Below are positions 29,508 through 53,194 of a stretch of DNA of 64,000 bases, piece after piece. The translations under genes were made by a program, and so were the position numbers. The stretch lies in the NCBI GenBank assembly GCA_963805625.1, contig CAWDVE010000021.1:288001-352000 (forward strand). Reading direction: 5' to 3'. Each line of letters opens with the position of its first letter. The first letter of the stretch is position 1. This DNA is from an uncultured Candidatus Rokubacteria bacterium. Its GTDB lineage: Bacteria; Methylomirabilota; Methylomirabilia; Rokubacteriales; DASRDR01. The notes under the pieces were generated by a model. The model had not been told where the DNA came from and did no database searches. It saw only the letters and a list, made by a program, of their open reading frames with translations.

Positions 29508-29583
29508 TGGTGGAGCTGAGGGGGATCGAACCCCTGACCCCGAGACTGCCAGCCTCGTGCTCTCCCAGCTGAGCTACAGCCCC
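29508..29583 (-). tRNA. tRNA-Ala(GGC)
   Basis: 76-nt cloverleaf GGGGCTG...CAGCTCCACCA, anticodon GGC, G3:U70 pair, encoded CCA. Confidence 0.97.
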
Positions 29584-31175: not shown

Positions 31176-31263
31176 GCCGGGATGGCGGAACTAGGCAGAC
31201 GCGCCAGACTCAAAATCTGGTGGGCGCAAGCCCGTGGGGGTTCGATTCCCCCTCCCGGCACCA
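31176..31263 (+). tRNA. tRNA-Leu(CAA)
   Basis: 88-nt cloverleaf with long variable arm, anticodon CAA, GGTTCGATTCC T-arm, CCA end. Confidence 0.97.
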
Positions 31264-31522: not shown

Positions 31523-32260
31523 TCAGGCTCTGAAACGCCGCCAGGCGGCCAGCCCGGCGACGCCTGCGCCGAGGAGGAACAAGCCGTCGGGCTCGGGCAC
31601 CCTCGCGCTAGGGCCCGCGATGGTGAAGCCATCGATGCCGAATCCGTCGTTCTGTCTACTGCCGGCGTCGGAAAAGAACTGGAGCCCGCCGATCCCGGCG
31701 GAGTCCGTCACGGTGATGTAGAAAATCTGACCATCGTTGAGTTTCTGGGAGAACGGCTGGAAGGACTGGACTTTAAAGAGCGCGTTGACGTCGTTGATGT
31801 CGGTGACGAAGAACCCGACCGAGGTGACGTCCGTCGAGGCCGTCCAGGCCATGGCCTTGTAGTCGTTGCTGTCGAGCCAATGGCCATCCGGGCCCTCTAC
31901 CGCGAATCGGCCGACGTAAGGGCTCGTGCTGGCGTCGAGAATGGCGAGCCCGTCGTTGCACTTTGTCCCACACCCTTGGCCGGAGCCGTTGTTGCCGGGC
32001 GTGAGTGGCACGAAGGTTCCGACCGACGTGATGAAGGATCCTGGGTCACCCGAGTAGGTGCCGGCGCCGAAACCCTCGAAGTGCTCGGTTACCACGCTCA
32101 GACCGCCCAGACTGCTCAGATAGGCGCTCTCCGCGGCCTGGGCTTGGGCGAGAGAGCCGTCCCCATGGACGGTGAAGATGGGAACCGCCTCCGCTTGGAC
32201 GATAGCGAATAGGCCGATCACAACCGTCACCAAGCATCCGAGCGTTCGCGGAATGGTCAT
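31523..32260 (-). CDS. PEP-CTERM sorting-domain protein
   Basis: Signal peptide; C-terminus VPEPDGLFLLGAGVAGLAAWRRFRA. Confidence 0.9.
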   Translation of the reverse strand: MTIPRTLGCLVTVVIGLFAIVQAEAVPIFTVHGDGSLAQAQAAESAYLSSLGGLSVVTEHFEGFGAGTYSGDPGSFITSVGTFVPLTPGNNGSGQGCGTKCNDGLAILDASTSPYVGRFAVEGPDGHWLDSNDYKAMAWTASTDVTSVGFFVTDINDVNALFKVQSFQPFSQKLNDGQIFYITVTDSAGIGGLQFFSDAGSRQNDGFGIDGFTIAGPSARVPEPDGLFLLGAGVAGLAAWRRFRA

Positions 32261-34287: not shown

Positions 34288-35448
34288 ATGATGCGCTACG
34301 GACGACGAGTCGTGGTCCTGATCGCTGCCGCGTTGGGCGTACTACCGGGGAGCCCTGCCAACGCGGGTCCGATCCTCGTTACGGGCGCAGGGCTCGCCGG
34401 TGGGCCGCACGTGCGGGTCCTTGACGCGGCGACTGGAGCTGAGATCATCTCTTTCTTTGCTTACGATCCCCAGTTCACGGGGGGTGTCCGGGTGGCGACT
34501 GCGGATGTCAACGGTGATGGAGTGCCAGATGTCATCACGTCGGCGGGGCCGGGAGGTGGCCCGCACGTGAAGGTGTTCGATGGAGCCTCGCTACTCGTGG
34601 GCCAGGTCGTCGAGCTGCAGAGCTTCTTCGCCTACGACCCGCTTTTTGCCGGTGGGGTGTTCGTGGCGGCGGCCGACACAGCACAGGCTGGGCCTCCGGG
34701 TCCGCAAGGTCCGCAGGGACCCGTCGGCGCCCAGGGAGCGACGGGCGATGTGGGACCGATCGGCCCTGCCGGTGCTGTCGGCCCCGCGGGGCCTGATGGA
34801 CCTCCTGGGCCGGCGGGACCGACTGGCGCTGCGGGACCAATCGGCCCTGCCGGCCCGACTGGCGCCACTGGCGCTGCGGGACCAATCGGCCCTGCCGGCC
34901 CGACTGGTGCCACTGGCGCCGCGGGACCAATCGGCCCTGCCGGCCCGACTGGTGCCACTGGCGCCGCGGGACCAATCGGCCCTGCCGGCCCGACTGGTGC
35001 CACTGGCGCCGCGGGACCAATCGGCCCCGCGGGGCCCCAGGGTGATCCAGGCCCGAGTGCCTTCATCGTCGGCGGGGGCACCGGAGGCCAAAACCTGAGT
35101 GCCATCGCGGACAGCTTCGTCCCAATGCTCGACAGCCTGCGTACAGCAACCGAGAGCATAGCGCAGCAGGAGATCACGGTCGCCGGCACCCTGTCGAAAC
35201 TCCGCGTTCGGATCGACGGCGCCGCGGGCACCGCCGGCAGCGGCAAGTCCTACACCATCACCGTCCGCGTGAACGGCCTCGACACGGCTGTGACGTGCAC
35301 GATTCTTGAAACCGCGACGACCTGTTCGGACTCTGCGCACACCCTGACCCTGAACGCCGGTGACCTCATCTCGCTGGGCGTGGTGCCGAGCGCCTCGAAT
35401 CCTACTGTGCGGCCGCTACGCTGGACCGCTCAGTTTTCCGCCTCGTGA
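34288..35448 (+). CDS. Secreted protein: two FG-GAP-like repeats, collagen helix, C-terminal beta-rich domain
   Basis: Signal peptide; 2x GGPHV...FFAYDP.F.GGV; about 41 uninterrupted Gly-X-Y triplets. Confidence 0.88.
34825..35040 (+). repeat. 45-bp tandem repeat (4 full + 1 partial) encoding [15 protein letters not shown]
   Basis: Near-identical nucleotide units inside the collagen region. Confidence 0.9.
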
Positions 35449-35896: not shown

Positions 35897-36361
35897 TCAG
35901 CGTGACGCGAAGACCGTCTGCCGGCCGCCCTTGTCGAACGCCAGCACCTGGTAGGGTGCGGCGGGCTGCCCGGAGGTCTCCATGCCGGGAGACCCGGGCG
36001 GCATACCGGGCACCGCGATGCCCACGACCGACGGACGCTCCCGGAGGAGCCGATCGATCACGTCGGCCGGCACGTGCCCCTCGACGATGTATCCGGCCAC
36101 CAGCGCGGTGTGACAGGCCGCAAGCGCCGACGGCACCCCAAGCTGCCGTCGAAGCCCATCAAGATTCTCCGTGTCCTGGATCGCGACCGGGTAGCCGTGT
36201 GTGCGCAGGCGGCCCGCCCACGCTTCGCAGCACCCTCAACTGGGGGAGCGATGCACCGTGACCAGGGGCCGGCCGGCCGGGGCGGCCGCCGCGAGCCTCG
36301 CCGCTGGAAGGGTTATCAGTCCGCCGATTAGCACTTCGCGCCGTCCCATTCCCCGTACCAT
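35897..36361 (-). CDS. DUF411/CopG-family metal-binding protein with in-frame TGA (candidate selenoprotein)
   Basis: Tat-like signal RREVL, VHRSPS-TGA-GCC, then the frame continues through ACHTA...YIVEGHVPA...AVPGMPPGSPGME; SECIS-like hairpin at 36235-36189. Confidence 0.75.
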
Positions 36362-37799: not shown

Positions 37800-37929
37800 T
37801 CCCGGCCCCGCGCGGGGTGCCTGAGAAGGGAGCGAGCTGCGGACGGGGCTACCGCCGCCGGGGGTGCTAGTGTGGCCTTCGCTCTGCCAAGCGTGCTCGG
37901 CAGCACACCTCAAAGAGGAGAAAACAAAA

Positions 37930-38568
37930 GTGAGCCGTTTTGTCTTGGCCATCGCGGTTATTTGCTTGACACTCAGCGCGACCGCACATGCAACTGTCTT
38001 CCGCTTCGACACTGACCCGTTCGCCGGATCAACCGCATTGACAACACCAGGACGACAAATCGTCGGCGGGGAGACTTTTATCACCTTTGACATTGCAACG
38101 GACATCTTTTCGCTGGAATCGACTGTATTCGGTGTGGGAAGCTCAGTCCTATTCGTAAACGATTTGGCTGCCAATCTGCCAACTGGCGGCGTGAACGTGA
38201 TCGTGTTGCAGACTTTTGACAACGATGCCGATCCGACAACGCCGTTCGCCGCCGGTAACGCCGCAAATTTGATTGCGGACCAAATTACATCGCCGGGCCC
38301 AGGGTTCTTCATTTATTTCAACCAAAATCTCGACCTGCCCCGTCTGGTGTTTTCTACCGATCTGGACGACAATACCGCCGACTTGAAGATCCTCTTTCGC
38401 ATGACAAACCTGACCGCTCAAGGTGGCCGTGACGCAATCCCCACGTTCACTGAGGCGAACTTCGAAATCACGACAGTCCCTGAACCATCCACCCTGCTAA
38501 TGGTGACGACGGCTGGCGCATCCCTGGCCTGTCGCTACGCGTGGCGGCGCAGGCGGACGCGGGGTTGA
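37930..38568 (+). CDS. PEP-CTERM sorting-domain protein
   Basis: GAGGAG RBS and GTG start, signal peptide ending AHA; C-terminus VPEPSTLLMVTTAGASLACRYAWRRRR. Confidence 0.9.
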   Translation: MSRFVLAIAVICLTLSATAHATVFRFDTDPFAGSTALTTPGRQIVGGETFITFDIATDIFSLESTVFGVGSSVLFVNDLAANLPTGGVNVIVLQTFDNDADPTTPFAAGNAANLIADQITSPGPGFFIYFNQNLDLPRLVFSTDLDDNTADLKILFRMTNLTAQGGRDAIPTFTEANFEITTVPEPSTLLMVTTAGASLACRYAWRRRRTRG

Positions 38569-38884: not shown

Positions 38885-39549
38885 CGCGCACCAGCGGATG
38901 TAGCCGCCGAGGCGAGCCGGGCCGCTTCCCCTTCCGCGACGAGCGGCCGGTCCTCAGGCACCGGCAAGGCGTCGAGGCTCCGCGCGATGGCCGCCGACCA
39001 GGCGGCGCACGCGGGCCGGTGCGCCTCGGGGATCCCGAGGAGGTCGCCGATGATCGCGCGTGAGAGCGGCTCGGCCAGGTCGGCCACCACGTCCATCCAG
39101 TCGGCCGCCGCCACGCGCTTCAGCAGCACGTCGACGTGGGACTGGACGCGCGGACGGTGCACCTCGACGGCGCGCGGCGTGAAGGCGCGGCTCACCGTGT
39201 CGCGGAGCCGCGTGTGGTGCGGCGGGTCGCGGAAGAGCATCGACTGCCGGTGGCCGCCGGTCGCCGGGCAGCTGGCGAGCGTGAGGCCGGCGCCGGCGCT
39301 GGTCGCCGCCGACCCGCCGCCCATCCCGAAGTAACGCTCGAACCCTTCGCGCCCGAACCGTTGGTCGCAGCGGACCGCCGCCACGTCCGCGTGGCGCGTG
39401 AGGACCCAGAGGCCACCGGTGTCCGGCGGACCGGGGCCGTGGCGTTGAGGCGCGTGTAGCGCGGATACGGGTCGGTGAAGAGCCGCGGGGGCGGGCGGGC
39501 CGAGGAGGCCGTCTGGCTGCCGGGGCGCGTCGAGCGATGGGCGAGTCAT
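38885..39549 (-). pseudogene. Cytochrome P450 N-terminal remnant
   Basis: DPYP (shifted frame), WVLTRHADV, MLFRDPPHHTRLR..VSRAFTPR, IGDLLGIP; truncated before the I-helix. Confidence 0.8.
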
Positions 39550-39663
39550 GCCCGGGGGAGAGGGCAACCGGGGTGCCAGCGCGGCCTCGTCGGCGGGCCG
39601 CGTGTCAATCGGGCTGCCGTGATGCGGCCCTGCCCGGCGCATCGCCCGCCAGCCGCCGCCGGC

Positions 39664-39732
39664 GAATCCGCTCCGAATCCGCACGGAATCCGCTCCGGAG
39701 CGGATTGGGGAGCGGATCACGGAGCGGATTCC
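39664..39732. repeat. Iteron-like array: three direct plus three inverted copies
   Basis: GAATCCGCTCC-type unit x3 (11-bp period), then GGAGCGGAT x3 (12-bp period). Confidence 0.85.
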
Positions 39733-39913: not shown

Positions 39914-42016
39914 ATGACGCGCGACCCGGTGACGCTGCCCGCCGTCCTCGCCGAGCTCCGGGGCGTCCAGCGCGCCGGCGCCGGCTGGAGCGCCTTCTGC
40001 CCCGCCCACGAGGACCGGCAGAAGCGCAGCCTGTCGGTCGCGGAGCGGGACGGCCGCATTCTGTTCAAGTGCTTCGCCGGCTGTCCGGTCGACCGCATCG
40101 CGCACGCGCTCGGGCTCGAGATCTCGGCGCTCTTCGCCGCCGGGAGCGGCGGCGCGCATCGACCCGCGCGGCGTCTCGTGGCTCGGTACCAGTACCGCGA
40201 CGAGCGCGGCACGCTCCTCTACGAGGTCTGCCGGTTCGAGCCGAAGGACTTCCGGCCCCGGCGGCCGGACGGACGGGGCGGCTCGGTCTGGGGCCTCGGC
40301 GACGTGCGGCGGGTGTGCTACCGGCTCCCGGACTTCGTGGAGCACGAGCGCGTCTTCTGGGTCGAGGGGGAGAAGGACGTCGAGCGGCTGTGGGCGCTCG
40401 GTCTGCCCGCGACGACGACTCAGGGCGGCGCCCGGAGCTTCCGGCGGGAGTACGCCCGGCAGCTCGCCGATGCGGCGGTCCGCGAGGTCGTCGTCATCCC
40501 CGACGCGGACGCCGCCGGCCACCGGTACGCCGCGGAGGTGGCGGCCGCCGCGGGCGCAGCTGGGCTGACCGTCCGCCGGCTCGAGCTCCCCGGCCTGCCC
40601 GAGCACGGCGACGTGAGCGACTGGCTCCAGGCGGGCCACACGGCGGACGAGCTCCGCGCCCTCGCCGACGCGGCGCCGGCGTGGGACGGAGCGGCGTCAA
40701 GAGACGGATCGTGTGCGCCGGTCGACGGGATCCCGATGGGTGTCGCGAGGCCGATCTCCGGCGCCGCGGGGGCGAGCGATGCGCCCGAGCGCATCGCCGA
40801 GGGCGAGGACGTCCGCATCCGCTGGCCGGGCCCGCCGGCGCTCGAGGTGCTCGCCGTCGCGCCCCACGAGTCCGGCGACGGGATCCACGCGGAGGTGACG
40901 GTCAGCCTCGCGGGCGCCGTGCTGTCGTGGGGACGGTTGAACCTCGTGTCCACCGTGATGCGCGAGGGCCTGGTGAAGAAGCTCCGGGAGACGGCGCCCG
41001 AGGTGCCGTGGCGGGAGCGGCTCGAGCTCGCCTGCCGGCTGATCGCCGAGCAGCTCCGGACCGGGGCGCCCCTCGTCGCCCTCCGCCCGGCGCCCCGCGC
41101 CGGCGGCCGCCGGGACCTGGTCGACGGCATCCTGCCCCTCGGCGAGACGTCGCTCGTCTACGCCGACGGCGACACCGGGAAGGGCTGGGTCGCGCTGCTC
41201 CTGGCGGTCGCCGTCGCGACCGGGCGGGCCTTCCCGCATCTCCGCCCGCTCCGGGACGACGTCACGACGGCCTATCTCGACTGGGAGACCACGGAAGAGG
41301 AGGTGGCCGAGCGCGTCGACGCGATCTGCCGCGGCCTCGGCGTCACCCTGCCGCCGGGCGCGATCCTCTACCGCCCGATGTACCGCGCGCTCGCCGACGA
41401 GGCGTCGCGGCTCCGCGCCGATCTCGCCCGGCACGGCGTCGGCTTCGTGATCGTCGACAGCTTCGCCCCGGCGGCGGGGGTCGAGCCCGAGAGCGCCGAC
41501 AGCACGATCCGCACCATGAACGCCCTGCGGAGCTTCACCGGCACCACACGCCTCGTCCTGGCGCACGTCAGCAAGGCCGCCGCCGACCAGCTGAGCGGCG
41601 CCGCGCGCCCGTACGGGTCCGTGTTCGTCCGCAACCTCGCGCGCTCGGCCTGGGAGCTCCGCCGCGCCGAGGAGGCCGGAGGCGACGAGCTCCTCCTCGC
41701 CGCCTACCACCGGAAGGACAACGGCGGGTGCCGGACGCCCGCGTTCGCCTTGCGGCTCCGCTTCGATCCCGACGGCGCAGTGTCGGTCGCGGACGCCGAC
41801 CTGGCGGACGCGCCCGACCTCCTCGCCCGCACGAGCGTCGCCAAGCGCGTCACCGTCGCCCTCGCGGCCGGGGCTCTCACCGTCCCCGAGCTCGCCGCCG
41901 AGGTCGCGACGTCCAAGGCCACAGTGGGCCGCACCGTGCGGCGACTCCGCGACGAAGGCCGCGTCGTCCTCGTGGACGGCGTCCGGCCCTGCCGGTGGGC
42001 GCTCGCCAGCCGATGA
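39914..42016 (+). CDS. Primase-helicase fusion (Zn finger, TOPRIM, RecA/AAA_25 helicase, HTH)
   Basis: CPAHED...CFAGC; VEGEKD and PDAD; Walker A ADGDTGKG, Walker B VIVDS; C-terminal LTVPELAAEV...VGRTVRRL. Confidence 0.85.
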   Translation: MTRDPVTLPAVLAELRGVQRAGAGWSAFCPAHEDRQKRSLSVAERDGRILFKCFAGCPVDRIAHALGLEISALFAAGSGGAHRPARRLVARYQYRDERGTLLYEVCRFEPKDFRPRRPDGRGGSVWGLGDVRRVCYRLPDFVEHERVFWVEGEKDVERLWALGLPATTTQGGARSFRREYARQLADAAVREVVVIPDADAAGHRYAAEVAAAAGAAGLTVRRLELPGLPEHGDVSDWLQAGHTADELRALADAAPAWDGAASRDGSCAPVDGIPMGVARPISGAAGASDAPERIAEGEDVRIRWPGPPALEVLAVAPHESGDGIHAEVTVSLAGAVLSWGRLNLVSTVMREGLVKKLRETAPEVPWRERLELACRLIAEQLRTGAPLVALRPAPRAGGRRDLVDGILPLGETSLVYADGDTGKGWVALLLAVAVATGRAFPHLRPLRDDVTTAYLDWETTEEEVAERVDAICRGLGVTLPPGAILYRPMYRALADEASRLRADLARHGVGFVIVDSFAPAAGVEPESADSTIRTMNALRSFTGTTRLVLAHVSKAAADQLSGAARPYGSVFVRNLARSAWELRRAEEAGGDELLLAAYHRKDNGGCRTPAFALRLRFDPDGAVSVADADLADAPDLLARTSVAKRVTVALAAGALTVPELAAEVATSKATVGRTVRRLRDEGRVVLVDGVRPCRWALASR

Positions 42017-42081
42017 GCGGGGGCAACCCGAGCCCCATGAGTGCCGGCACCCCGCACATGTTCGCCGGATCGTCTCCGGCC

Positions 42082-42207
42082 TGTCCGCCGAGCTGTCCGC
42101 CCGGACATCCGGATCGCACGTCCGGTTCGCGAGTACCGGGACCCATTCGTGGTCCCGTACGAACCGGACGGACAAGTTCTTTCCTATGGGGTGTCCGCTT
42201 GTCCGCT
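42082..42207. repeat. TGTCCG repeats and long hairpin downstream of the primase-helicase
   Basis: TGTCCGC at 42082, 42094, 42192, 42200; CGGACA inverted copies; IR GTCCGGTTCG...CGAACCGGAC at 42120-42169. Confidence 0.7.
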
Positions 42208-42436
42208 TCGGGCGGCAACAGCCGCTCGATCTGGTCTCGGCCGGCCCGCATCGGGGGACTCGAGCCGATCAGGGTGTCGATGGCACCCACATCGGCCGTG
42301 TGCGGCACTGAGGCGTCCGAGTCGTCTAGCCGGTGAGGTACGTGGGTCATCGGGACTCCCCTTCGCGGCTGGCAATCAGCCTTTGATAGACGAATCGGGA
42401 ATAGTGGCGCGGGAATTCGTGTGGGAGTCGGATGTC

Positions 42437-42676
42437 GTGTTCCGGGTCTACGACAAGGAAGACGTTTCGCTGCGGCTCGACGCCGTAGCAGGCCGGCTCG
42501 ATGAGATTCTGGTCGACGCGGTGCTGTCCGCGACTTCGAAGTCCTCGAAGTCCTCGATCACTTCGCGATCGGACCTCGCCGCCCGGTCAGACCTGGCGGC
42601 GCGCTCGGATCTGGCCGCGCGCTCCGATCTCGCGGCCCGGTCGGACCTGACTGCGCGACACCGATTAAGGAGCTGA
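42437..42676 (+). CDS. 79-aa peptide with five RSDLAA repeats (RiPP-precursor-like)
   Basis: GGGAG RBS and GTG start; repeats conserved as protein but differing at synonymous codon positions. Confidence 0.75.
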   Translation: MFRVYDKEDVSLRLDAVAGRLDEILVDAVLSATSKSSKSSITSRSDLAARSDLAARSDLAARSDLAARSDLTARHRLRS

Positions 42677-42761
42677 GCTGGTTGGGCAGACGCTTCCCGC
42701 CGGTGGACGGGTGCCCGAGCTCCTCGGGGCGCCCGTGCCGGCGGGTGGGACTCCGATGTCC

Positions 42762-44303
42762 CTAGTTGGCGCCGGCGACGAACACCCCGCCCAGGAAGCC
42801 CGGCGGGTAGGCGAAGAAGCCCTCGAGGGGACCCGCGATCGGGGTGCCCGTGGCGCCGCTGAAGACCCGCACGTGGGGTCCACCGCCCGGCCCCGGGGTC
42901 GTGATGATGTCGGCTCGAGCGTCGCCGGTGAGGTCGCCAGCGGCCGCGACGAAGACGCCACCCGTGAAGCGCGGATCGTAGGCGAAGAAGCTATGCACCT
43001 CCACCGGGGCACCGACGCGCAGGGCGGCGCCGTCGAAGACCTGGACGTGGGGTCCACCGCCCGGCCCGGGCCCGGTGATGAGGTCCGGCACGCCGTCGCC
43101 GGTCACATCCCCGGTCGCCACGTGCACGCCGCCGGTGAAGGCCGGATCATAGGCGAAGAACTCGGCGAGCGACGTGCCCGTGGCCCCATCGAGGACCCGT
43201 ACGTGGGGCCCGCCGCCCGGTCCGGGGCTCATGATGAGTTCCGCTCGATCGTCGTTGGTCAAGTCGGCGGCCGCGACGAAGACGCCCCCCGTGAAGCGCC
43301 GATCGTAGGCGAAGAAGCTTCCGAGGGGACCCGGGATCGGGGCACCCGTGGCCCCGCTGAAGACCTGCACATGCGGGCCGCCGCCGGGCCCGGCGCCGGT
43401 GATGATGTCGGCTCGACCGTCGCCGGTGAGGTCGCCAGCGGCCACGAAGACGCCGCCCATGAAGCCCGGATCGTAGGCGAAGAAGCTATACACCTCCACC
43501 GGGACACCGACCCGCAGGGCGGCGCCGTCGAAGACCTTGACGTGGGGTCCACCGCCCGGCCCGGGCCCGGTGATGACGTCCGGCACGCCGTCGCCAGTCA
43601 CATCCCCGGTCGCCACGTGCACGCCGCCGGTGAACGCCGGATCATAGGCGAAGAACTCGGCGAGCGACGTGCCCGTGGCCGCATCGAGCAGGCGCACGTG
43701 GGGTCCACCGCGCGGCCCGGCACCGGTGACCATCAGCGGTCGGGGCGCCACTGACGCGGGGGTCGAAAAGATGGCGGTGACGATGGTGGTGTCGGCGGTG
43801 ACGGTGCAGGTGGGGCTGGTTCCCACACAACCGCCGCCGCCCCAGCCAGAGAAGACGAAACCCGCGCCGGGAGTGGCAGCCAGGGTGACGCTGGCACCGC
43901 TCGGGTCGATGTGGATGCAGTCGTCGCCGCAGTTGACCGCGTTGGCGGGCGTGATGCTGGTGACGGTGCCGGTGCCGATCTTCGCGATCATGAGCAGAGC
44001 GGCGGCCGTGTGGCAGGCCTCGTTGCTGGGGGCGGAGCTACCTGTAGCATTGTAGGCGCGAACGCGATAGCAGTAACCTTGCCCTGCAGTCGCCGTGGTG
44101 TCGACGTAGCTGGTGACGTCGGCGCCGACGGTCGCGATCTCGGCGTGGGCGCCCGACGGGATGAGGCGGCGCTCGATCCGAGAGCCCAACGCGTTCGTGG
44201 CATTGTTGGTCCAGCTCAGGCTGAGCTGGCCGGCGAGCACGGGGCTGCCGACGAGGATGCTCGCCACGATCGCGGCAAACTGGATCCGGGTGAAGCGAGT
44301 CAT
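42762..44303 (-). CDS. Secreted protein: Fn3, InlB-B-like repeat, six FG-GAP-like repeats
   Basis: Signal peptide; LSW...YCYRVRAYN; VTLAATP..GFVFSGWGG..C; 6x GGPHV. Confidence 0.85.
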   Translation of the reverse strand: MTRFTRIQFAAIVASILVGSPVLAGQLSLSWTNNATNALGSRIERRLIPSGAHAEIATVGADVTSYVDTTATAGQGYCYRVRAYNATGSSAPSNEACHTAAALLMIAKIGTGTVTSITPANAVNCGDDCIHIDPSGASVTLAATPGAGFVFSGWGGGGCVGTSPTCTVTADTTIVTAIFSTPASVAPRPLMVTGAGPRGGPHVRLLDAATGTSLAEFFAYDPAFTGGVHVATGDVTGDGVPDVITGPGPGGGPHVKVFDGAALRVGVPVEVYSFFAYDPGFMGGVFVAAGDLTGDGRADIITGAGPGGGPHVQVFSGATGAPIPGPLGSFFAYDRRFTGGVFVAAADLTNDDRAELIMSPGPGGGPHVRVLDGATGTSLAEFFAYDPAFTGGVHVATGDVTGDGVPDLITGPGPGGGPHVQVFDGAALRVGAPVEVHSFFAYDPRFTGGVFVAAAGDLTGDARADIITTPGPGGGPHVRVFSGATGTPIAGPLEGFFAYPPGFLGGVFVAGAN

Positions 44304-44323
44304 GTGGACGCCCGTGCAGGCAG

Positions 44324-44339
44324 TGCAATGTGTGTACCC
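44324..44339 (-). promoter_or_regulatory. Sigma-54 promoter
   Basis: GGGTACACACATTGCA (GG-N10-GC) with an AT-rich tract upstream. Confidence 0.6.
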
Positions 44340-44634
44340 GTTTCGCCAAGAAGCGAGCATGAAAGCTAAGTAACGTGAACTTCTGCTATTATTTGCAATC
44401 CTGTTCGGACCCGAGATCCCTACCGCCACGGGTGGCCCTGACAAAACTGGGGACTGGAGGTGCCAAAAGACGGCCTGCCCCCCGAGAGACGGGACCCCCG
44501 TGTCCAGCCTCACGGTGGTCTCGTGGCGCTCCTCGACTCAGACCTCACCTCGGGAACGGGAAGCGGTCGCTCCTCGTCAGCGTTCCCTCTCCTCGCTCGC
44601 GGTCGCCCGGCGTGGGGCTACCGGTGGCCGGGTT

Positions 44635-47454
44635 TCAGTAGGCGAAGAACCCGGGGGTGACCGCGGCGCCAGCCGAGGTGAACGGAATGACGTGAGGGCC
44701 GCCGCCGGGGCCCGGCCCCGTGATGATCTCGGCGGCGACGCCGCCAGTGACGTCCCCGGCGGCCACGCGGACGCCCGCGGTGAAGAGAGGCGAATAGGCA
44801 AAGAAGCCGCCGCCAAGCGGGATGCCGGTTCCGTAGAAGGCACGGGCGTGGGGGCCGCCGCCAGGACCGGGGCCCGTGATGATCTCGGCAACGACGCCGT
44901 CGCCGGTGACGTCCCCGGCCGCGACGAACACCCCGCCGGTGAAGGCGGGGTCGTAGGCGAAGAACTCGGCGACGCTCAGCAAGGCGGCACCGGTGAACCC
45001 CAGCACGCGGACGTGGGGGCCGCCGCCCGGGCCGGGGCCGGTGACGATCTCGGCGCGGCCGTCTCCGTCGACGTCGCCGACGGCCACCTGGACGCCGCCG
45101 GTGAAGCCACCGTAGACGAGGGCGTCGAAAACGGGGAGGACGCCACCGGGGGAAGCCGGCGCGTAGCGGAGGATGCGGAGGTGGGAGCCGCCGCCGGCGC
45201 CGGCGCCGGTGACGATGTTGACGATGCCGGGGCCCTCCACGGGCCCGCAGGCGACGAAGACGCCGCCCGTGAAGGCCGGGTCGTACGCGAAGAAGCTGGC
45301 CAGTTCGCCCACCACGCTGCCGGCGGGATCCAGCTTGAAGACCCTTACATGGGGCCCACCGCCGGGGCCCGGGGCGGTGACGATCTCGTCCCGACCGTCG
45401 CCGTCGAAGTCGCAGCCGGAGGCGACGCGGACGCCGCCGGTGAAGGCCGGGGCGTAGGCGAAGAACCCGGGCCCAATCGGGACACCGTTCGCGTCGAAGA
45501 TCTTCACATGAGGGCCGCCGCCCGCGCCGGCCCCGGTGATGATCTCGGCGGGGACGCCGGGTGCGTCGATCCGGCCGGTGGCCACGTAGACGCCGCCCGT
45601 GAAGATCGGGAGGGGCGTGGCGTCGACGGCGTCAAGCGCGTCGGCGCGGCCGAATCCGGAGTCGGCGTCGAAGCCGGCCGGCCCCAGGTCGACCGCGGCG
45701 CCGGTGAGGATCCCGCGAACCTCGGGCGGGGTCAGCCCGGGGTTCTTCGAGAGAGCGAGCGCGGCGATGGCCGCGACGTGAGGAGCGGCCGCGGAGGTAC
45801 CGAAGAAGGGGTTGAAGCCGGGGCGGGTGGTGCTCACCCCGTCGATGCCCGTCAGGTCCGGCTTCGGCCGCTCCTCGGCCGCCGGGAACACGGTCGTCGA
45901 CGGTCCAGCCGAGCTGAACGGCTCGATGACCGTCGGGGTACCGGAGAACGCGGCGGCCACGGCGAGCACCTCGGGGACGGCCGGATGCCCGAAGATGCTG
46001 CCGGCGGGGACGGCGAACTCCTGGAGCGTGCAGCGCAGGCAGTACAGCTTGAGGGGCCGTGCCGCCCCCGAGACGCGCGTGATCTGGATGTCGCCGGCAC
46101 AGCTCGGCCCTGGCGGGCACACGAGCAGTATGCTCTCGATCGGGTCGTCGTTGCCGTCCTGGACGAACTGTGAGCAGCTGAGCCCCACGCCCGGGGTGGT
46201 ACGCACGCAGAGATCGTAATTGTCGCCGGCCGCGCCGAAGGGGTTCGCCCACTGGAGGACGACGAAGGCACTGGCGCCGCCGGGGGCGGTGAAGCGCATG
46301 AGCGTGTCGCCGCCGCCGAAATCGTGCCGCGTGCCGGACACCTCCGGGTCGAACACGCCCGGGGTGAACAGCGCGGCCGCGTAGTGCCCGGTGCGATCGT
46401 TACCGGCGGCGGACACCCGGAGGACGCTGTTGCCCACGGCCCGGTCGTTCAGGGCGATTAGCCCGTCCTGGAAGTAGGGCTCACCGTAGAACCCGAGGTC
46501 GTCGACGATGATCCGCGCCCCGGCGGCCGTCAGGTTGTTCACGGCGTTGACAAAGGTGAGCGCACTCGCAATGCCGGTCGCGAAGAGGAGCGGCGCGCCG
46601 GGCGCGCAGTCGTGGACGATCTCCAGCATCGCGGTGCCCTCGTCCCCGGGAGCGTCGGCGAGGACCGTGACGCCCGCGGGCAGGTCCCCGGTGGCCTGGG
46701 AGGCGGCGAGGCCGGCGACGCCGTCCGAGATCACCCCGACTGCGGCCCCGCTGCCGGTGAAGCCCAGGGCGCGTGCCTGGTCGCAGCGATGGATCGCGTC
46801 GCCCTGGGAGGTGACCGAGCCGGTCCTCGTCGTGCCGTAGCTCGGCGGCCGGACCTTCAGGACGACCGGCTCTCCGGCCAGCGCCTCCAGGTTCTCGATG
46901 GGGATCCAGCCCTCGACAACCCGGAAGTCGGCGTTGACGATCTCGATGTCCAGCCCGTGGCCCCGGAGCTGCATCAGCGTCCCGTCGTCCGCGTCGGCGA
47001 CGGTCACGTCGACCTGTACTCGCCCCGCGTCGTCCACGCGTTGGGCCGCCGACGAGAAGCGCCCGGCGGCGCCCATCGCGGCCGCGTTCTGGGAGGTGAT
47101 GCCGAGCGACTGGAGGTCGGCGATGAGCGCCCGGAGCCGTGACACGATCTTCTCCGAGGCGGCACTGGTCACGGGGCCGGATGAGCTGAGCTGGCCGACC
47201 GCCCGAAAGTCCTGCGCCCCGGCGATCGGGGGTGCCAGGGCGAGCAGGACCACGGCCAAGAGCGCCGCGAGACCGGCGCGGCGGCTGGCCCCCGCGCGTA
47301 TTGCGCACCGCAGCGCGGCACGGCCGGCGGTGGTCGACGAGATCCGACGGGCACTGACTCGCACGGCTCCCTCCCTGGTCCAAAGGCGTGGGGCGCGGAG
47401 TCCGGCAGCGACCTCCCGACATTGGCCCCTGCAGCGGAAGAGCCCCCAGATCAT
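44635..47454 (-). CDS. Secreted S8/S53-like serine peptidase with six C-terminal FG-GAP-like repeats
   Basis: VGVISDG, DEGTAMLEIVHD, SAAGN, FGTSAAAPH. The true start is probably about 90 bp downstream of 47454. Confidence 0.88.
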   Translation of the reverse strand: MIWGLFRCRGQCREVAAGLRAPRLWTREGAVRVSARRISSTTAGRAALRCAIRAGASRRAGLAALLAVVLLALAPPIAGAQDFRAVGQLSSSGPVTSAASEKIVSRLRALIADLQSLGITSQNAAAMGAAGRFSSAAQRVDDAGRVQVDVTVADADDGTLMQLRGHGLDIEIVNADFRVVEGWIPIENLEALAGEPVVLKVRPPSYGTTRTGSVTSQGDAIHRCDQARALGFTGSGAAVGVISDGVAGLAASQATGDLPAGVTVLADAPGDEGTAMLEIVHDCAPGAPLLFATGIASALTFVNAVNNLTAAGARIIVDDLGFYGEPYFQDGLIALNDRAVGNSVLRVSAAGNDRTGHYAAALFTPGVFDPEVSGTRHDFGGGDTLMRFTAPGGASAFVVLQWANPFGAAGDNYDLCVRTTPGVGLSCSQFVQDGNDDPIESILLVCPPGPSCAGDIQITRVSGAARPLKLYCLRCTLQEFAVPAGSIFGHPAVPEVLAVAAAFSGTPTVIEPFSSAGPSTTVFPAAEERPKPDLTGIDGVSTTRPGFNPFFGTSAAAPHVAAIAALALSKNPGLTPPEVRGILTGAAVDLGPAGFDADSGFGRADALDAVDATPLPIFTGGVYVATGRIDAPGVPAEIITGAGAGGGPHVKIFDANGVPIGPGFFAYAPAFTGGVRVASGCDFDGDGRDEIVTAPGPGGGPHVRVFKLDPAGSVVGELASFFAYDPAFTGGVFVACGPVEGPGIVNIVTGAGAGGGSHLRILRYAPASPGGVLPVFDALVYGGFTGGVQVAVGDVDGDGRAEIVTGPGPGGGPHVRVLGFTGAALLSVAEFFAYDPAFTGGVFVAAGDVTGDGVVAEIITGPGPGGGPHARAFYGTGIPLGGGFFAYSPLFTAGVRVAAGDVTGGVAAEIITGPGPGGGPHVIPFTSAGAAVTPGFFAY

Positions 47455-48300: not shown

Positions 48301-48480
48301 CGCCCCACCTTGTTCTCGCTGTGATCGCCGAGTTCGAGCGGGACCTGATCCCGGCGCCTCGGATTGGACCACGCCACCGATTGGACCCACCGATTGGACC
48401 TCGACAAGACCGCACCCCGCGGGATAGACTCCCCGTCGAACTCGCCCTGGCCTGGACCGGCAGTAAGGGATGGGATCGAC

Positions 48481-49686
48481 ATGGCCTCGGGGCCCAAAGC
48501 GACGGAAACGCCTGCCGTGACGCGCGGAGCGGATGTCGAGTCAGCGGGGCTTGTGGAGCGGGATCTCTCATCTCCTCGTGGCCAGGGTGCGGGCCGGCCG
48601 CGCCTTCGTGTGCTCCGGGATGAACCCGGCGCGCGCGGCCGGCTGATCGCGCGAATCCTCACCGGCGCCTGGCGGATGGCGCCGCCACCGCCCGACTTCA
48701 CGGCCGACGAGTTGGAGGCTGCCGCACCGCTCCTCCATAAGGGCGGATCAGGTGCGCTGGTCTGGTGGCGAATCCGTGGCACACCGCTGGCCGAGACCCC
48801 GACTGGCCAGGGGTTCCGCAACGCCTATCGGCTTTGCACTCTCGAGGCGGAGATCCACGCGATCGAGATGGTCCGGGTGCTACAGCGACTCGACGCGGCG
48901 GGCGTAGAGACCCTCGTCGCTAAGGGTTGGGTGGCCGCGCGCCACTATCCCGAGGTCGGGCTCCGCCAGTATACCGACCTGGACCTGTTGGTCCGACCCG
49001 CGCACGTAGTGGCGGCCCGGACCGCTCTGGCGAGCCTCGCAGGTCTCGAGTATCTGGTGGACCTCCACGAGGGGGCGAGGCACCTGGACGCGCTCAGTTT
49101 CGATGACCTGGCGGCGCGGGCGGAGCACGTCAAGGTCGGTGAACGGGACGTGTGCGTTGTCGGTCCGGAGGACCACCTCCGGGTGCTTGCCGTTCACGCC
49201 CTGCGCCATGGCGTCTTCCGCCCTCTTTGGCTGGTCGACCTCGCCGTGGCGATGGAGGCCCGGCCGACGGACTTCGACTGGACCCGCTGTCTCGGGCCTG
49301 ACCCGCGGCGCGCGGACTGGGTGGCCTGCGCCCTCGGGCTGTCCCACCGCCTACTCGGGGCGGACCTCGACAGTGAGTTGGTGGAGGCGCGCGCGCGGCG
49401 ACTGCCAGACTGGCTGCTTCGGGCCGTCCTGCGGGCCTGGGATCGCTGCGAGGACCCCAGTCTGCACGAACCCTTCGCGTGGGTGCTCGCACGGGAGCTG
49501 CGGCGACCGGCCCGTATCGTCGCGGAGATCCGGCGCCGCTGGGACCGCCCGATCCAGGCGACGGTCGCGGTGGGCGGCCCGTTCAACCGGCTCCCCCGCT
49601 GGCCGTTCCGGCTGGCGGCGATCGTCCGCCACGCGCCCGGGATCGGACGGGTGCTCAGGCAGACGATCGGCGCCAGGGCACGGTGA
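48481..49686 (+). CDS. Nucleotidyltransferase family protein (NTP_transf_5-like)
   Basis: KGW....YP..GLR...DLDLLV, VDLH, LWLVDL. Start uncertain. Confidence 0.82.
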   Translation: MASGPKATETPAVTRGADVESAGLVERDLSSPRGQGAGRPRLRVLRDEPGARGRLIARILTGAWRMAPPPPDFTADELEAAAPLLHKGGSGALVWWRIRGTPLAETPTGQGFRNAYRLCTLEAEIHAIEMVRVLQRLDAAGVETLVAKGWVAARHYPEVGLRQYTDLDLLVRPAHVVAARTALASLAGLEYLVDLHEGARHLDALSFDDLAARAEHVKVGERDVCVVGPEDHLRVLAVHALRHGVFRPLWLVDLAVAMEARPTDFDWTRCLGPDPRRADWVACALGLSHRLLGADLDSELVEARARRLPDWLLRAVLRAWDRCEDPSLHEPFAWVLARELRRPARIVAEIRRRWDRPIQATVAVGGPFNRLPRWPFRLAAIVRHAPGIGRVLRQTIGARAR

Positions 49687-49744
49687 TCTCCGCCGAGGCA
49701 GGTGGTTCGACGGGCCGTCGCCATGGTCGCGGAGGTCGACGGGG

Positions 49745-50734
49745 TCAGGGCGACGCTGGGCGCTCGAGATCGAGGCTCCTGAGGAGCGCGTCCGCCGTCT
49801 GCCGCGCCTCCCCACGGACGACGCGGAGGATCGGGGCCCTCAGGACAACCTGCTGGATCGCCACGAGGGCTCGCGGAGGGTCCCGCCGGACAGAGACGGT
49901 GTTGGCCAGGAGCTCGAGCGCTCCTTCGGCGGCCGAGAGTCGCCGCGGACGCCAGCGCGCCCCGGCCCGGTAACGGCTTACGACTACGAGGCCCACCGGA
50001 AGCGACCGGGTTCCGGTGCGTCCGCCGAGCGCCGCGGCGGACCAGCGCGATCGGTCCAACCCGCGGTCCCCGCGAAGCGAGAGGCGTCGCGCGTACGGGT
50101 AGACGCGCCCGCGCAGGTCGAGCACGGCGTACTCGTCCGAGTAGTACGTCGCCCCCGCCCGGACCAGGTCTGCGACGAGCCTGCTCTTGCCGCTCATGCT
50201 GGGTCCGGGCAGGAGGATCGCCCGCCCGCGCCAGCCCACAACGCCGGCATGCACGAAGACGCGCCGCGGCGCTCGCTCGGCGACGTAGAGTTGGAGGTCG
50301 GACTCGAGGCTGTCAAGGATGCCTTCCAGGGTCCGGTCCCGGGTCACGGGCGCCGTGTCACCCCAGAGGCGATGCCACCCCTCGCGGCGCGGCACGACCA
50401 GCGAGTACAGGCGATCGACGATCCGCGCGTCGGCCAGGCGCCAGCCGGGCGGTAGCCGGTCGCGCAGCGACGCCAAGACCGACAGTTCGTTCGCACGGAC
50501 CCCGATCCGCAGCCCGTAGGCCGTGATGGCGAAACCCAGCCGACACGCGGGCGGCCCCCAGCGTCCCGAACGTGGAGTCCCGGGCTTCGGGGCGACGCAG
50601 AGATCCTTGAGCCCGCGGCCGATACGGGGAAGCTCCGCGGCCAGGCAGACGATCGAGGCGAACCCCCTGCCCTGGCGGACGGCAAGGCAGGGTCCGGAAC
50701 ACGATGCCGGCGCAGGCGCCGGCTGACCCCTCAC
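49745..50734 (-). CDS. HPr kinase-like P-loop kinase
   Basis: FVHAGVV, Walker A GPSMSGKS, YYSDEYA; GTG start overlaps the upstream stop. Confidence 0.82.
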   Translation of the reverse strand: MRGQPAPAPASCSGPCLAVRQGRGFASIVCLAAELPRIGRGLKDLCVAPKPGTPRSGRWGPPACRLGFAITAYGLRIGVRANELSVLASLRDRLPPGWRLADARIVDRLYSLVVPRREGWHRLWGDTAPVTRDRTLEGILDSLESDLQLYVAERAPRRVFVHAGVVGWRGRAILLPGPSMSGKSRLVADLVRAGATYYSDEYAVLDLRGRVYPYARRLSLRGDRGLDRSRWSAAALGGRTGTRSLPVGLVVVSRYRAGARWRPRRLSAAEGALELLANTVSVRRDPPRALVAIQQVVLRAPILRVVRGEARQTADALLRSLDLERPASP

Positions 50735-52287
50735 GTCCCTGGCGGGTGGGCCCGCGGGCTCTCGATGATCGGCGCGACGCCGGCCAGCGCGAGGACGTTC
50801 CGCGCCCCGATTCCGATCGTCGAGGCGACCCGGCCCTCAGCGTCTATCAGCACGGCCGACGGCGTTGCGCGGGCCTCGAAGACCTTGCTCACCTTCAAGC
50901 CCTCGTCGAGGACGACGGTCGAGCGGAAGCCCAGAGCGCGGTTTGCCTCGACCGATCCCGAGGAGACCACGAGCAGACGGGGGGCGCCGCGGGGGGGCTC
51001 GGCCTCCCACCGGTGAAGATCCTCGGCCATCCGCTGGCAATACGAGCAGTCCGGATGCCAGAAGACGAGAAGGGTGTCCCGTCCGCGGTAGTTGCGGAGG
51101 TCGATCATCCGGTTGTCGAGGTCGGGAAGCGTGAATGGCGGCGCGAGCTGGCCGGGGCGGGGCGGCCCTCCGGCCAGCACCGGCAGCGATCCGTGGCTCT
51201 CCCGGCCGTTCGTCCGCGCCGGGAACGGGGCACCAGGTGAGGCGACGGCGTGGGCAACAAGGGCGCGGATGGCAGCGTCCCCGAAGACGACCGGGCCTGC
51301 GATCCGCCCGGTTCGCCCGATGAGGACCGCGCCGGGAGTCCACTGGGCGCCGTAGGCGTCGGCAACTTCACTCCGCGCCTGGAGGAGCATGGCCTCGGAC
51401 GACATCCCACCGAACTTTGTCCGGTTCTCGTCGGTACTCCCGGTCGTGACCAGCGCCAGCGTGAACGCCTCCGCGTGCTCGCGCTGCCAGCGGGCGATCT
51501 CGGGCGCGAGGGCAGTGCAGGGATCACAGGCCGGCCCCACGAAGAGAAGCAGGACCGGCCGGCCAAGTCCAAGGAGGGTGCCGAGCGAGCGTGTCTCACC
51601 GTCGCCAGCGGGCAGGGAGAAGGCCGGCGCCAGCGCGCCCACCGGGAGGGCACCCACCGTGAGGCCCGTGTCGAGTTGTCTGCCCTCACTGGGCGCGCCG
51701 ATTCCCTGTTCCACCCGTGCCTCGATCGCGTCGAGCCGGGTCAGGACCCGCGCCTGCTGGATGAGCAGGCGCAGCACCATCCCGACGACCGTGCCAAGAA
51801 CCGCCAGCGCGGCGAGGCCCAGGACGGCCAGGGTGCGCTCGGCGGGCGGCAGCGCACCGAGCCAGCCCACGACGCTCAGCCCGGAGTCGTTCCATCCGGC
51901 ACCGACAACGAACACGGCCAGCGCGCCAAGAACAACGTTCCGGAGCAAGGTCGGCCAGCCCACTGGGGCCGAGCGCAGCTGGCCAAAGCAGCGGCACTCG
52001 GGCCGCTGGCCCCGCGCGAGACTCAGCGCAATGGCGATCGTGAACGCCACGAGAAGGCCGAGGGCCCCGAGCCCACCCCACCACGCGGAGGTGCGCGGAA
52101 CAAGGGCGGTGGCGACAGACAGCTCTGCGGCCGGGAGAGCCACCGCGAGGGGTCCCACGAGCCAGGCGGGCAACCCGAATCCGGCAAGGCCCTCGCGGGC
52201 GCCGGTCCGGTCCAGGAGCTTGGTGACGCCGGCAACCGTGAACACGCCGGCGAGCGCGAGTCGGGCACTGAGGAGGACCGCGTCCAT
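50731..52287 (-). CDS. MauE/DoxX membrane domain fused to two thioredoxin-like domains
   Basis: TM helices with CRCFG; redoxin motifs CDPC and CSYC, each preceded by G..AP.F.LP. Confidence 0.88.
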   Translation of the reverse strand: MDAVLLSARLALAGVFTVAGVTKLLDRTGAREGLAGFGLPAWLVGPLAVALPAAELSVATALVPRTSAWWGGLGALGLLVAFTIAIALSLARGQRPECRCFGQLRSAPVGWPTLLRNVVLGALAVFVVGAGWNDSGLSVVGWLGALPPAERTLAVLGLAALAVLGTVVGMVLRLLIQQARVLTRLDAIEARVEQGIGAPSEGRQLDTGLTVGALPVGALAPAFSLPAGDGETRSLGTLLGLGRPVLLLFVGPACDPCTALAPEIARWQREHAEAFTLALVTTGSTDENRTKFGGMSSEAMLLQARSEVADAYGAQWTPGAVLIGRTGRIAGPVVFGDAAIRALVAHAVASPGAPFPARTNGRESHGSLPVLAGGPPRPGQLAPPFTLPDLDNRMIDLRNYRGRDTLLVFWHPDCSYCQRMAEDLHRWEAEPPRGAPRLLVVSSGSVEANRALGFRSTVVLDEGLKVSKVFEARATPSAVLIDAEGRVASTIGIGARNVLALAGVAPIIESPRAHPPGT

Positions 52288-52435
52288 CTGGGACTCTACC
52301 TCACACCGATTCCGCTGGGCGCAAGACCGGGGACCTCTGGCGCGTGGGTGTGACGCAGGGCCTGCCGGGGGACCGGAGCCGCCGATCCCCCGGCCCCCTC
52401 AACCCGCTGCCGCTGACCGAACTCGAGCAGCGCTC

Positions 52436-53194
52436 CTAGCGGCTGCCGACCGTTGGCACTCCCGGCGCTGGCAGCGCGGAACCGGCGCCGCCGGGGCACG
52501 GTCCTACACACACACCGGCGGCACCACAGCAGGTGTTCACGACGCAGGCCTGGCCGGATGGGCAGCCTGCACTCGCGGTGCACGCCGTGAGGCCTGCGCA
52601 GGGCGTCGCCCCGTCAACGCAGAATCCCGACCCCTCGGAGGTCGTGGCGCACACGCAAGTTCCCCCGGGACCGCACGTCTGGAAGTTCGTGCAGGTTCTC
52701 CCTGCGCAGGCCGCCGTGGTCTGCGCCGCCGCGGGATGGGGCGCGACCACCGAGGTGACGGCGGGGAGGATCAGGGCTCCGGCGGCCACGCTCAGCCCCA
52801 ACCGCGCTAGCACCTGCCGCCGGGACACCGCCCGCTGCATCGGCAGCCGCTCCTGGAGCAGCTGTGCCCGGTCCAGCTCGGCGAGGGCGAGCCACACGAC
52901 CTCCTCGTTGGCCCCGGGCAGCTCCGGCTGGAGCCGACTCGTGAGCTCCTGGACGCTCGCCCGCCCGTCGCATTCCCGCCACACGAGGAGGGCAGGGCGA
53001 TTTAGCGCGTGCGCCCGGTGCTGATCGAGATCGTAGACCAGCACTTCGTCGGCCACGTCGCGGATGACCAACCCCTCATGTCGGGCCTGCGGTCGGAACG
53101 CCGCAGCCGACACCCACCCCCCTTGCGCCTCGGGTCTCCGTTGCTCCATCGTCGGCCCCTCCACTTTCGAGTCGGGTTGGCTAGTGGTCGACAA
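52436..53194 (-). CDS. PqqD/RRE domain, internal twin-arginine-like signal, 14-Cys domain
   Basis: EVLVYD..AHALN..A.LVW..CDG...L..L...LL; SRRQVL-hydrophobic-AAAQ; Cys-rich tail. Start TTG 53194 or ATG 53149. Confidence 0.85.
   Translation of the reverse strand: MSTTSQPDSKVEGPTMEQRRPEAQGGWVSAAAFRPQARHEGLVIRDVADEVLVYDLDQHRAHALNRPALLVWRECDGRASVQELTSRLQPELPGANEEVVWLALAELDRAQLLQERLPMQRAVSRRQVLARLGLSVAAGALILPAVTSVVAPHPAAAQTTAACAGRTCTNFQTCGPGGTCVCATTSEGSGFCVDGATPCAGLTACTASAGCPSGQACVVNTCCGAAGVCVGPCPGGAGSALPAPGVPTVGSR

What the first reader, a model, noticed from the sequence alone, without database searches (positions are those of the whole stretch)
42437..42676. Unannotated peptide with five RSDLAA repeats conserved at the protein level
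Seen: leader MFRVYDKEDVSLRLDAVAGRLDEILVDAVLS, a Ser/Lys linker, then (RSDLAA)x4 + RSDLTA at 42566-42655. Codons vary between units (Arg CGA/CGG/CGC, Ser TCG/TCA/TCC, Asp GAC/GAT), so this is not recent slippage. Inference: a leader-plus-multicore RiPP precursor, here without an adjacent maturase. The repeated Ser could be a target of the kinase/nucleotidyltransferase 6-8 kb away, which is speculative.
Basis: partly seen in the sequence, partly recalled or inferred. Interest (0 to 1): 0.7.

Follow-up and report, generated by a model that had tools for sequence, protein, structure and literature searches.

The report
Truncated repeat-tailed thioamide precursor remnant
This short gene is the back half of a larger repeat-tailed protein that elsewhere sits in a widespread gene set predicted to make small sulfur-modified peptides; here it has lost its front half and its partner genes and is likely a dead passenger on a mobile element.

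Summary
The repeats are real: (RSDLAA)x4+RSDLTA at 42566-42655, with 41 of 45 pairwise base differences at third codon positions. But this is not a whole leader-plus-core peptide. It is the C-terminal half (profile positions 90-185 of 186) of a 160-260 aa protein family with no Pfam match (487 hits). Its retained leader half is 56/58 identical to a full-length relative. Full-length members end a cassette of nucleotide cyclase/STAND protein, YcaO, TfuA and an M4/M36-fold peptidase (all three enzymes in 56 of 80 loci). Their tails are variable 4-7-residue repeats, so the family is likely a thiovarsolin-like multicore thioamide precursor with a folded leader. The window copy lacks the N-terminal ~90 residues and follows a phage-type primase gene among broken genes. 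The same junction occurs in four metagenome studies, and five sister copies are frameshifted before the repeats. It is most likely a pseudogene fragment. The genome's one intact cassette is on contig C10. The nearby kinase/nucleotidyltransferase never accompanies the family (0 of 83 loci). I found no paper on the cassette; this scan has already reported it in other genomes.

The parts
42368..42676 (+). Fragment homologous to the C-terminal half of the repeat-tailed precursor family (profile positions 90-185 of 186); the N-terminal ~90 residues are missing
   Evidence: 56/58 identity of the leader half to full-length P0070 and a starred two-row tree group
42383..42676 (+). Longest plausible short ORF (TTG start, 97 aa); no Shine-Dalgarno-like motif right upstream in this copy; same start as metagenome protein P0002
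42437..42676 (+).
42536..42553 (+). Exact 9-nt duplication (SKS SKS), recent slippage, absent in most relatives
42566..42655 (+). Five 6-residue units, (RSDLAA)x4 + RSDLTA: predicted core repeats
39914..42016 (+). Phage/mobile-element-type primase-helicase gene (Toprim + AAA_25 + HTH) directly upstream
42017..42210 (.). 3' flank of the primase element, shared with a partial copy on contig C16; occupies the place of the missing N-terminal coding region
38917..39708 (-). Broken cytochrome P450 (N-terminal part only): context of gene decay
48364..53194 (.). Separate NTP_transf_5 / HprK-like kinase / MauE-thioredoxin / PqqD-Cys-rich cluster; not part of this system

Best explanation
The ORF is the 5'-truncated back half of a repeat-tailed protein gene, now joined to the flank of a primase-bearing mobile element and likely non-functional, whose intact relatives are predicted to be multicore precursors of small thioamide-bearing peptides. 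Shown: the truncation, the junction, the family and the cassette (cyclase/STAND gene - YcaO - TfuA - gluzincin peptidase - precursor). Inferred for intact cassettes: the conserved ~150-residue folded leader docks on YcaO/TfuA; TfuA supplies sulfide and YcaO uses ATP to turn a backbone amide in each 4-7-residue repeat into a thioamide; the signal-peptide-less M4/M36-fold peptidase cuts the tail into units; the TPR- or STAND-bearing class III cyclase controls or senses the product. Inferred for this copy: it lacks three of the four predicted leader strands and all partner genes, so it is likely not processed.
For: Truncation: the family profile matches only positions 90-185 here but 2-183 on C10, with no stray N-half anywhere in the genome; it is the only partial match of 4 matches in 251 genomes of the phylum. 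Identity with full-length P0070 extends five codons upstream of the earliest start codon. The lost part holds 21 of the 33 columns that are at least 90% conserved and predicted strands 10-17, 54-64, 67-80. Decay: 5 of 6 members of the P0126 cluster carry the same upstream flank plus the fragment and all 5 shift frame after LDAVAG, before the repeats (the sixth ends earlier); an RNA-library contig has a +1 insertion at the same place. A neighbouring P450 and an IS630 transposase are broken too. Family role: YcaO+TfuA+peptidase in 56 of 80 loci, peptidase in 75 of 80; cyclase or STAND in 70 of 80, and 56 of 56 well-flanked loci; repeat tails in 72 of 80. The C10 YcaO scores better to the thioamide-forming TIGR03266 (1e-74) than to SagD (4e-39). 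The peptidase model matches M36/M4 structures (E 1.5e-6, TM ~0.5) with invariant H175-E176-H179 and E203. Thiovarsolins are thioamide tripeptides from a repeating precursor with YcaO+TfuA (PMC6511847, passages read).
Against: The frame of this copy is open through all five repeats, as it is in contigs of runs X1, X2, X3 and X6, and their indels in the ORF are in frame (+6, -9). The frameshifted copies may be one inherited event. In X3 and X6 a 37-nt deletion brings GAGGT to 7 nt before the TTG, which would give a usable start. Two RNA libraries hold pieces of the ORF (contigs only, transcription not shown, one piece frameshifted). The genome has an intact YcaO-TfuA-peptidase set that could act in trans. 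For the family: 15 rhizobial loci have cyclase+peptidase+precursor but no YcaO/TfuA in the fetched flank, and 3 have only the cyclase, so thioamidation is not universal. No product has been observed.
Confidence: 0.65

Rival explanations
1. The short ORF is a functional mini-precursor (or competing decoy). It keeps the WxYDKxDxSLRLD...EILLxAxL segment next to the cores, which would be enough for recognition by the intact YcaO/TfuA/peptidase on contig C10, so a mobile element supplies new cores (RSDLAA instead of the C10 gene's RSQEQF) in trans.
For: Open frame and in-frame indels in runs X1, X2, X3, X6; a variant with a Shine-Dalgarno-like motif before the TTG; ORF pieces in two RNA libraries; the retained segment holds 12 columns conserved at 90% or more; the host has the enzymes.
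Against: Five sister copies and one RNA contig are frameshifted before the cores. No diverged family of short forms was found: 6 hits of 53-170 aa were one full-length protein, two copies of this same element and three proteins on short contigs, one of which clusters with a 231-aa member. The retained leader half is only 50% identical to the C10 protein. No promoter-like site in 42000-42800 (weak test in a GC-rich host).
Confidence: 0.15
2. The family is not a natural-product precursor but a folded signalling protein whose repeat tail is trimmed by the peptidase, and optionally thioamidated, to switch the neighbouring cyclase (protein modification like MCR or uL16). The window copy would still be a fragment.
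For: Cyclase and peptidase are more constant partners than YcaO/TfuA; the N-terminal part is large, conserved and predicted to fold (pLDDT 76.7); YcaO enzymes thioamidate whole proteins (PMC13063428, passages read); no transporter was seen in the three cassettes annotated.
Against: Tails vary freely in sequence and copy number (periods 4-12) behind a conserved leader, the usual precursor pattern; thiovarsolin production needs no cluster transporter.
Confidence: 0.2
3. The repeated Ser residues are targets of the HprK-like kinase/nucleotidyltransferase 6-8 kb downstream.
For: Proximity only.
Against: 0 of 83 family loci carry these genes; that cluster has its own PqqD-fused Cys-rich candidate substrate; two FG-GAP/subtilase genes lie between.
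Confidence: 0.02
4. The short form is an assembly error that cut a full gene.
For: Draft genome with 6% contamination estimate.
Against: Contigs from 4 of 4 runs laid (four studies; X1 may be the source sample) bridge the junction near 42365, and five database proteins read across it.
Confidence: 0.02

Closest known systems
Thiovarsolin pathway (VarA/VarY/VarT, Streptomyces varsoviensis; PMC6511847, passages read)
   Same: YcaO + TfuA next to a precursor with up to five imperfect repeats; varA, varY, varT suffice for thioamidated tripeptides.
   Different: The var cluster has no protease and no cyclase was mentioned in the text (0 occurrences); this family has a ~150-aa leader predicted to fold, a dedicated gluzincin and a class III cyclase/STAND gene, occurs mainly in Alphaproteobacteria among the named records, and has other cores. 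The window copy has none of the partner genes.
TfuA-related clusters of Proteobacteria surveyed by Malit et al. 2021 (PMC8120280, parts 1-3 of 6 read, supplements not seen)
   Same: Adjacent ycaO-tfuA genes in Proteobacteria, products unknown.
   Different: The parts read do not describe a 160-260 aa repeat-tailed precursor, an M4/M36 peptidase or a cyclase; their supplementary cluster figures may include some of these loci.
Protein backbone thioamidation (MCR by YcaO-TfuA; uL16 by E. coli YcaO; PMC13063428, passages read)
   Same: YcaO acting on a folded protein; the cassette's YcaO and TfuA score best to the McrA-thioamidation models, below their cut-offs.
   Different: Those substrates are conserved housekeeping proteins; here the putative target is a hypervariable repeat tail.
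Proteusin/NHLP precursors with large structured leaders (PMC12537861, search listing and start of abstract only)
   Same: Long, protein-like leader in front of a core.
   Different: No Pfam/NCBIfam/PDB match links this leader to NHLP or any known fold.

Membership tests
TfuA-YcaO thioamide RiPP (thiovarsolin type), window copy | ycaO and tfuA genes beside the precursor | tested here: not met
   No YcaO, TfuA or peptidase homologue in the window; the only set found in the genome is on C10.
TfuA-YcaO thioamide RiPP (thiovarsolin type), window copy | Complete leader in front of the core | tested here: not met
   Profile positions 1-89 of 186 absent.
TfuA-YcaO thioamide RiPP (thiovarsolin type), full-length family | Adjacent ycaO and tfuA next to the precursor | tested here: met
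   56 of 80 genome loci with YcaO, TfuA and peptidase; Pfam PF02624 and PF07812 above cut-off in the three loci scanned. 15 rhizobial loci lack the pair.
TfuA-YcaO thioamide RiPP (thiovarsolin type), full-length family | YcaO of the thioamide-forming rather than azoline type; TfuA Ser-Lys pair | tested here: inconclusive
   Best model TIGR03266 (E 1e-72 to 1e-76, below cut-off) over SagD; S78 and K209 invariant in 40 of 40 TfuA rows, but their identity with the catalytic pair is inferred.
TfuA-YcaO thioamide RiPP (thiovarsolin type), full-length family | Conserved leader followed by variable, repeated cores | tested here: met
   Repeat tails in 72 of 80 loci, periods 6 (28), 7 (20), 5 (19), 4 (3), 9 (1), 12 (1).
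TfuA-YcaO thioamide RiPP (thiovarsolin type), full-length family | Thioamide-containing peptide product | not testable with these tools
   Needs co-expression and mass spectrometry.
HprK-like kinase / NTP_transf_5 / PqqD peptide system | Precursor co-located with kinase, nucleotidyltransferase and PqqD across genomes | tested here: not met
   0 of 83 loci by phmmer with the window's own proteins.
M4/M36 gluzincin peptidases (partner gene on C10, not in the window) | Thermolysin-like fold with HExxH and a downstream Glu | tested here: met
   Model pLDDT 84.9; top Foldseek hits M36 and thermolysin, E 1.5e-6 to 1e-5; H175, E176, H179, E203 invariant in 28 of 28.
M4/M36 gluzincin peptidases (partner gene on C10, not in the window) | Sequence-level family match (Pfam cut-off), signal peptide and propeptide | tested here: not met
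   Only 1 of 28 members each hit PF02128 and PF01447, at E ~0.05; the N-terminus shows no hydrophobic signal stretch (read, 20 translations). It works like an M4/M36 enzyme but is not filed as a member.

The most novel reading that the evidence does not exclude
A mobile element spreads a leader-trimmed mini-precursor that feeds new peptide cores into, or jams, a host's resident YcaO-TfuA-peptidase-cyclase system, which is itself an undescribed thioamide-peptide signalling pathway of soil and marine bacteria.
Probability: 0.1. Interest if true: 0.8.

Novelty: new variant of a known kind. Interest (0 to 1): 0.4.

Why it matters
The intact cassette matters more than this copy. It is a widespread YcaO-TfuA system with a large folded leader of no recognised fold, its own cytoplasmic gluzincin, highly variable repeat cores and a near-constant cyclase partner. 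It offers a direct test of whether thioamide peptides act as intracellular signals in Gram-negative bacteria, and culturable carriers exist (Ruegeria, Skermanella, Pelagibius, Rhizobium). The window copy adds a natural half-leader deletion that can map which part of the leader the enzymes need. It is also a caution: synonymous divergence between repeats can be inherited by a pseudogene. The score is moderate because this copy is probably dead and the scan has already reported the cassette in at least five other findings.

Tried and rejected
Other reading frames: the minus strand gives RSDRAA/RSERAA-like pseudo-repeats but no family match; rejected. The 211-aa ORF from GTG 42041: its first ~105 codons have no similarity to the family and sister copies carry +1 insertions there; rejected. 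A displaced N-terminal half elsewhere in the genome: none found. G052 match (E 1.4e-4) is an unrelated xSDLAG/PTWLA repeat without the leader; L097 and L098 had no profile match; dropped. Pfam, NCBIfam and PHROGs: no family for the peptide or full-length precursors. PDB sequence search with the family profile: nothing meaningful. Fold searches of the P0070 model: no Foldseek hit at E<=0.001, best VIA Z 3.3; this does not show a new fold. ESM Atlas: only sub-0.9 hits. Literature: six sequence motifs found 0 papers; term searches found no description of the cassette; most subscription papers are not searched and the supplements of PMC8120280 were not seen. PMC8084935 (TfuA mechanism) was not held. 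Promoter/terminator scan: none. Earlier-findings look-ups by sequence and place returned nothing. No background rate was measured for cyclase genes near random genes, and the 80 loci are the best-scoring of 244 and include kin.

Full report
Observation. Differences between the five units fall 4/0/41 on codon positions 1/2/3. Across all six frames of the 7.27-Mb genome only two perfect tandem repeats of four or more units were found, and only this one has three or more different DNA units. The feature is real. No Pfam or NCBIfam family matches it.

The family. A search of 61 related genomes gave true matches in G015, G002 and a paralogue on contig C10 of the window's own genome (a fifth place in G052 was an unrelated repeat). 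In all three the match is the end of a 176-199 aa protein that closes a co-oriented run of genes: a large sigma-54 or class III cyclase/AAA_16 protein, YcaO (PF02624), TfuA (PF07812) and a 423-436 aa protein with no family. A profile of these three found 487 proteins; the 120 listed are unnamed or hypothetical, most 160-260 aa, with a conserved front and repeated tails such as RSDLAA, RVDLAA, RADLTS, RSGMAA, SGAGV, SGADLR. In GTDB genomes 244 stretches encode a relative; the best 80 were fetched, mostly Alphaproteobacteria by record title. Of these 80, 75 carry the 423-aa gene, 59 TfuA, 56 YcaO and 56 all three; 70 carry a cyclase or STAND gene, as do 56 of 56 loci with wide flanks (one hit is 6 kb off, no background rate measured, loci include kin); 72 have a detectable repeat tail with periods of 4-12 residues and none with Cys. 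Fifteen rhizobial loci have cyclase, peptidase and precursor but no YcaO/TfuA in the flank; three have only the cyclase; a few are cut by contig ends. The 423-aa protein is predicted with pLDDT 84.9 and matches M36 fungalysins and thermolysin (E 1.5e-6 to 1e-5, TM about 0.5), with invariant HExxH and downstream Glu. The precursor model (P0070, pLDDT 76.7) has strands at 10-17, 54-64, 67-80 and 119-124 and a low-confidence tail; no solved fold matched.

The window copy is a fragment. The family profile matches positions 90-185 of 186 here, against 2-183 on C10, and nothing else in the genome. It is the only partial match of four in 251 genomes of the phylum. The 58 residues from AGNQP to the start of the tail are 56/58 identical to full-length P0070 but only 50% identical to the genome's own C10 protein, and the tree groups it with P0070 at 100/98 (30 rows, chosen by hand). 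So it came recently from a full-length gene of another cassette, not from C10. Identity begins five codons before the first possible start (TTG 42383), as expected for a cut gene. The lost half holds 21 of 33 columns conserved at 90% or more. Upstream lies a primase-helicase gene of phage type whose 3' flank to about 42210 is shared with a partial copy on C16. The wider region starts at tRNA-Ala/tRNA-Leu genes and holds IS elements and broken genes, a half P450 and an interrupted IS630 among them. The only YcaO, TfuA and peptidase found in the genome are on C10.

Other copies of the same arrangement. Contigs from 4 of 4 DNA runs laid, from four studies, bridge the junction (X1 may be the source sample), so it is no misassembly. 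Variants differ: +6 and -9 nt in-frame indels, a single-repeat form (X9, whose upstream differs; P0002), and a 37-nt deletion that places GAGGT 7 nt before the TTG. Against function, five of six proteins in the P0126 cluster read through the same flank into the fragment and all five leave the frame after LDAVAG, before the repeats; an RNA-library contig has a +1 insertion at 42493. These may be one inherited event. Pieces of the ORF occur in two of three RNA libraries laid, which does not show transcription and could come from a near-identical full gene. A search for 53-170 aa relatives gave 6 hits and no diverged short family.

The kinase idea. The cluster at 48364-53194 is NTP_transf_5, an HprK-like kinase, MauE-thioredoxin and PqqD fused to a Cys-rich tail. 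None of these has a homologue in 83 family loci. It is a separate system.

Mechanism. Shown: family, cassette, folds as predicted, truncation, junction, frameshifted sisters. From the literature: TfuA releases sulfide from ThiS-COSH for YcaO, which forms the thioamide through an O-phosphorylated intermediate (PMC13185837, passages); varA+varY+varT make thioamidated tripeptides from a repeating precursor, with no cluster protease (PMC6511847, passages). Inferred: in intact cassettes each repeat is thioamidated and cut out by the gluzincin, and the cyclase ties the product to cyclic-nucleotide signalling (about 0.7 for a peptide-precursor role; the alternative is tail-trimming of a signalling protein). 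Inferred for this copy: a non-functional passenger (about 0.75-0.8), with about 0.15 for a trans-acting mini-precursor.

Novelty. No paper held any of six family motifs, and five term searches showed no description of the cassette; parts 1-3 of 6 of the global TfuA survey (PMC8120280) do not mention it, its supplements unseen. Earlier agents of this scan reported what reads as the same cassette in other genomes; I consulted them after reaching this reading and they are not independent evidence. Verdict: observation confirmed; interpretation partly supported; a truncated, probably dead member of an undescribed variant of TfuA-YcaO thioamide systems; interest 0.4.

Noticed in passing
G000:C10:1074906-~1082960 (L009:9904-17967, - strand): Intact cassette in the same genome: cyclase/AAA_16/TPR - YcaO - TfuA - gluzincin - 176-aa precursor with RSQEQF repeats. 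This is the better target for experiments.
   Followed up: yes
window 35897-36361 (-), TGA near 36238: DUF411 ORF with an in-frame TGA in SPS*GCC (the family motif is recalled as Cys-Gly-Cys-Cys); the genome has tRNA-Sec and a hairpin follows the TGA. Candidate selenoprotein, or another pseudogene.
   Followed up: partly
window 48364-53194: NTP_transf_5 + HprK-like kinase + MauE/thioredoxin + PqqD fused to a Cys-rich tail: a separate candidate peptide-modification cluster with its own precursor.
   Followed up: partly
L034, L043, L044, L055-L057, L063, L068, L076-L078, L081, L082, L086, L090: Rhizobial version: cyclase-TPR, peptidase and repeat-tailed protein (RSGGxx) without YcaO/TfuA in the flank; L072, L073, L080 keep only protein plus cyclase. 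Suggests the cyclase-peptidase link is the core of the system.
   Followed up: partly
L009:9213-9614 (-): Phage cement/head-decoration-like gene directly downstream of the intact C10 cassette.
   Followed up: no
window 34288-35448, 42762-44513, 44635-47454: Three secreted-type proteins sharing FG-GAP-like repeats, one with a collagen stretch and one with a subtilase domain; two PEP-CTERM proteins at 31523-32260 and 37864-38568.
   Followed up: no
window 29508-29583 and 31176-31263: tRNA-Ala and tRNA-Leu genes flanking an IS481-like transposase gene at the left end of the variable region; likely integration site.
   Followed up: no
L089:6568-8581: A second, inverted YcaO-TfuA pair sits between the peptidase and the precursor gene.
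   Followed up: no
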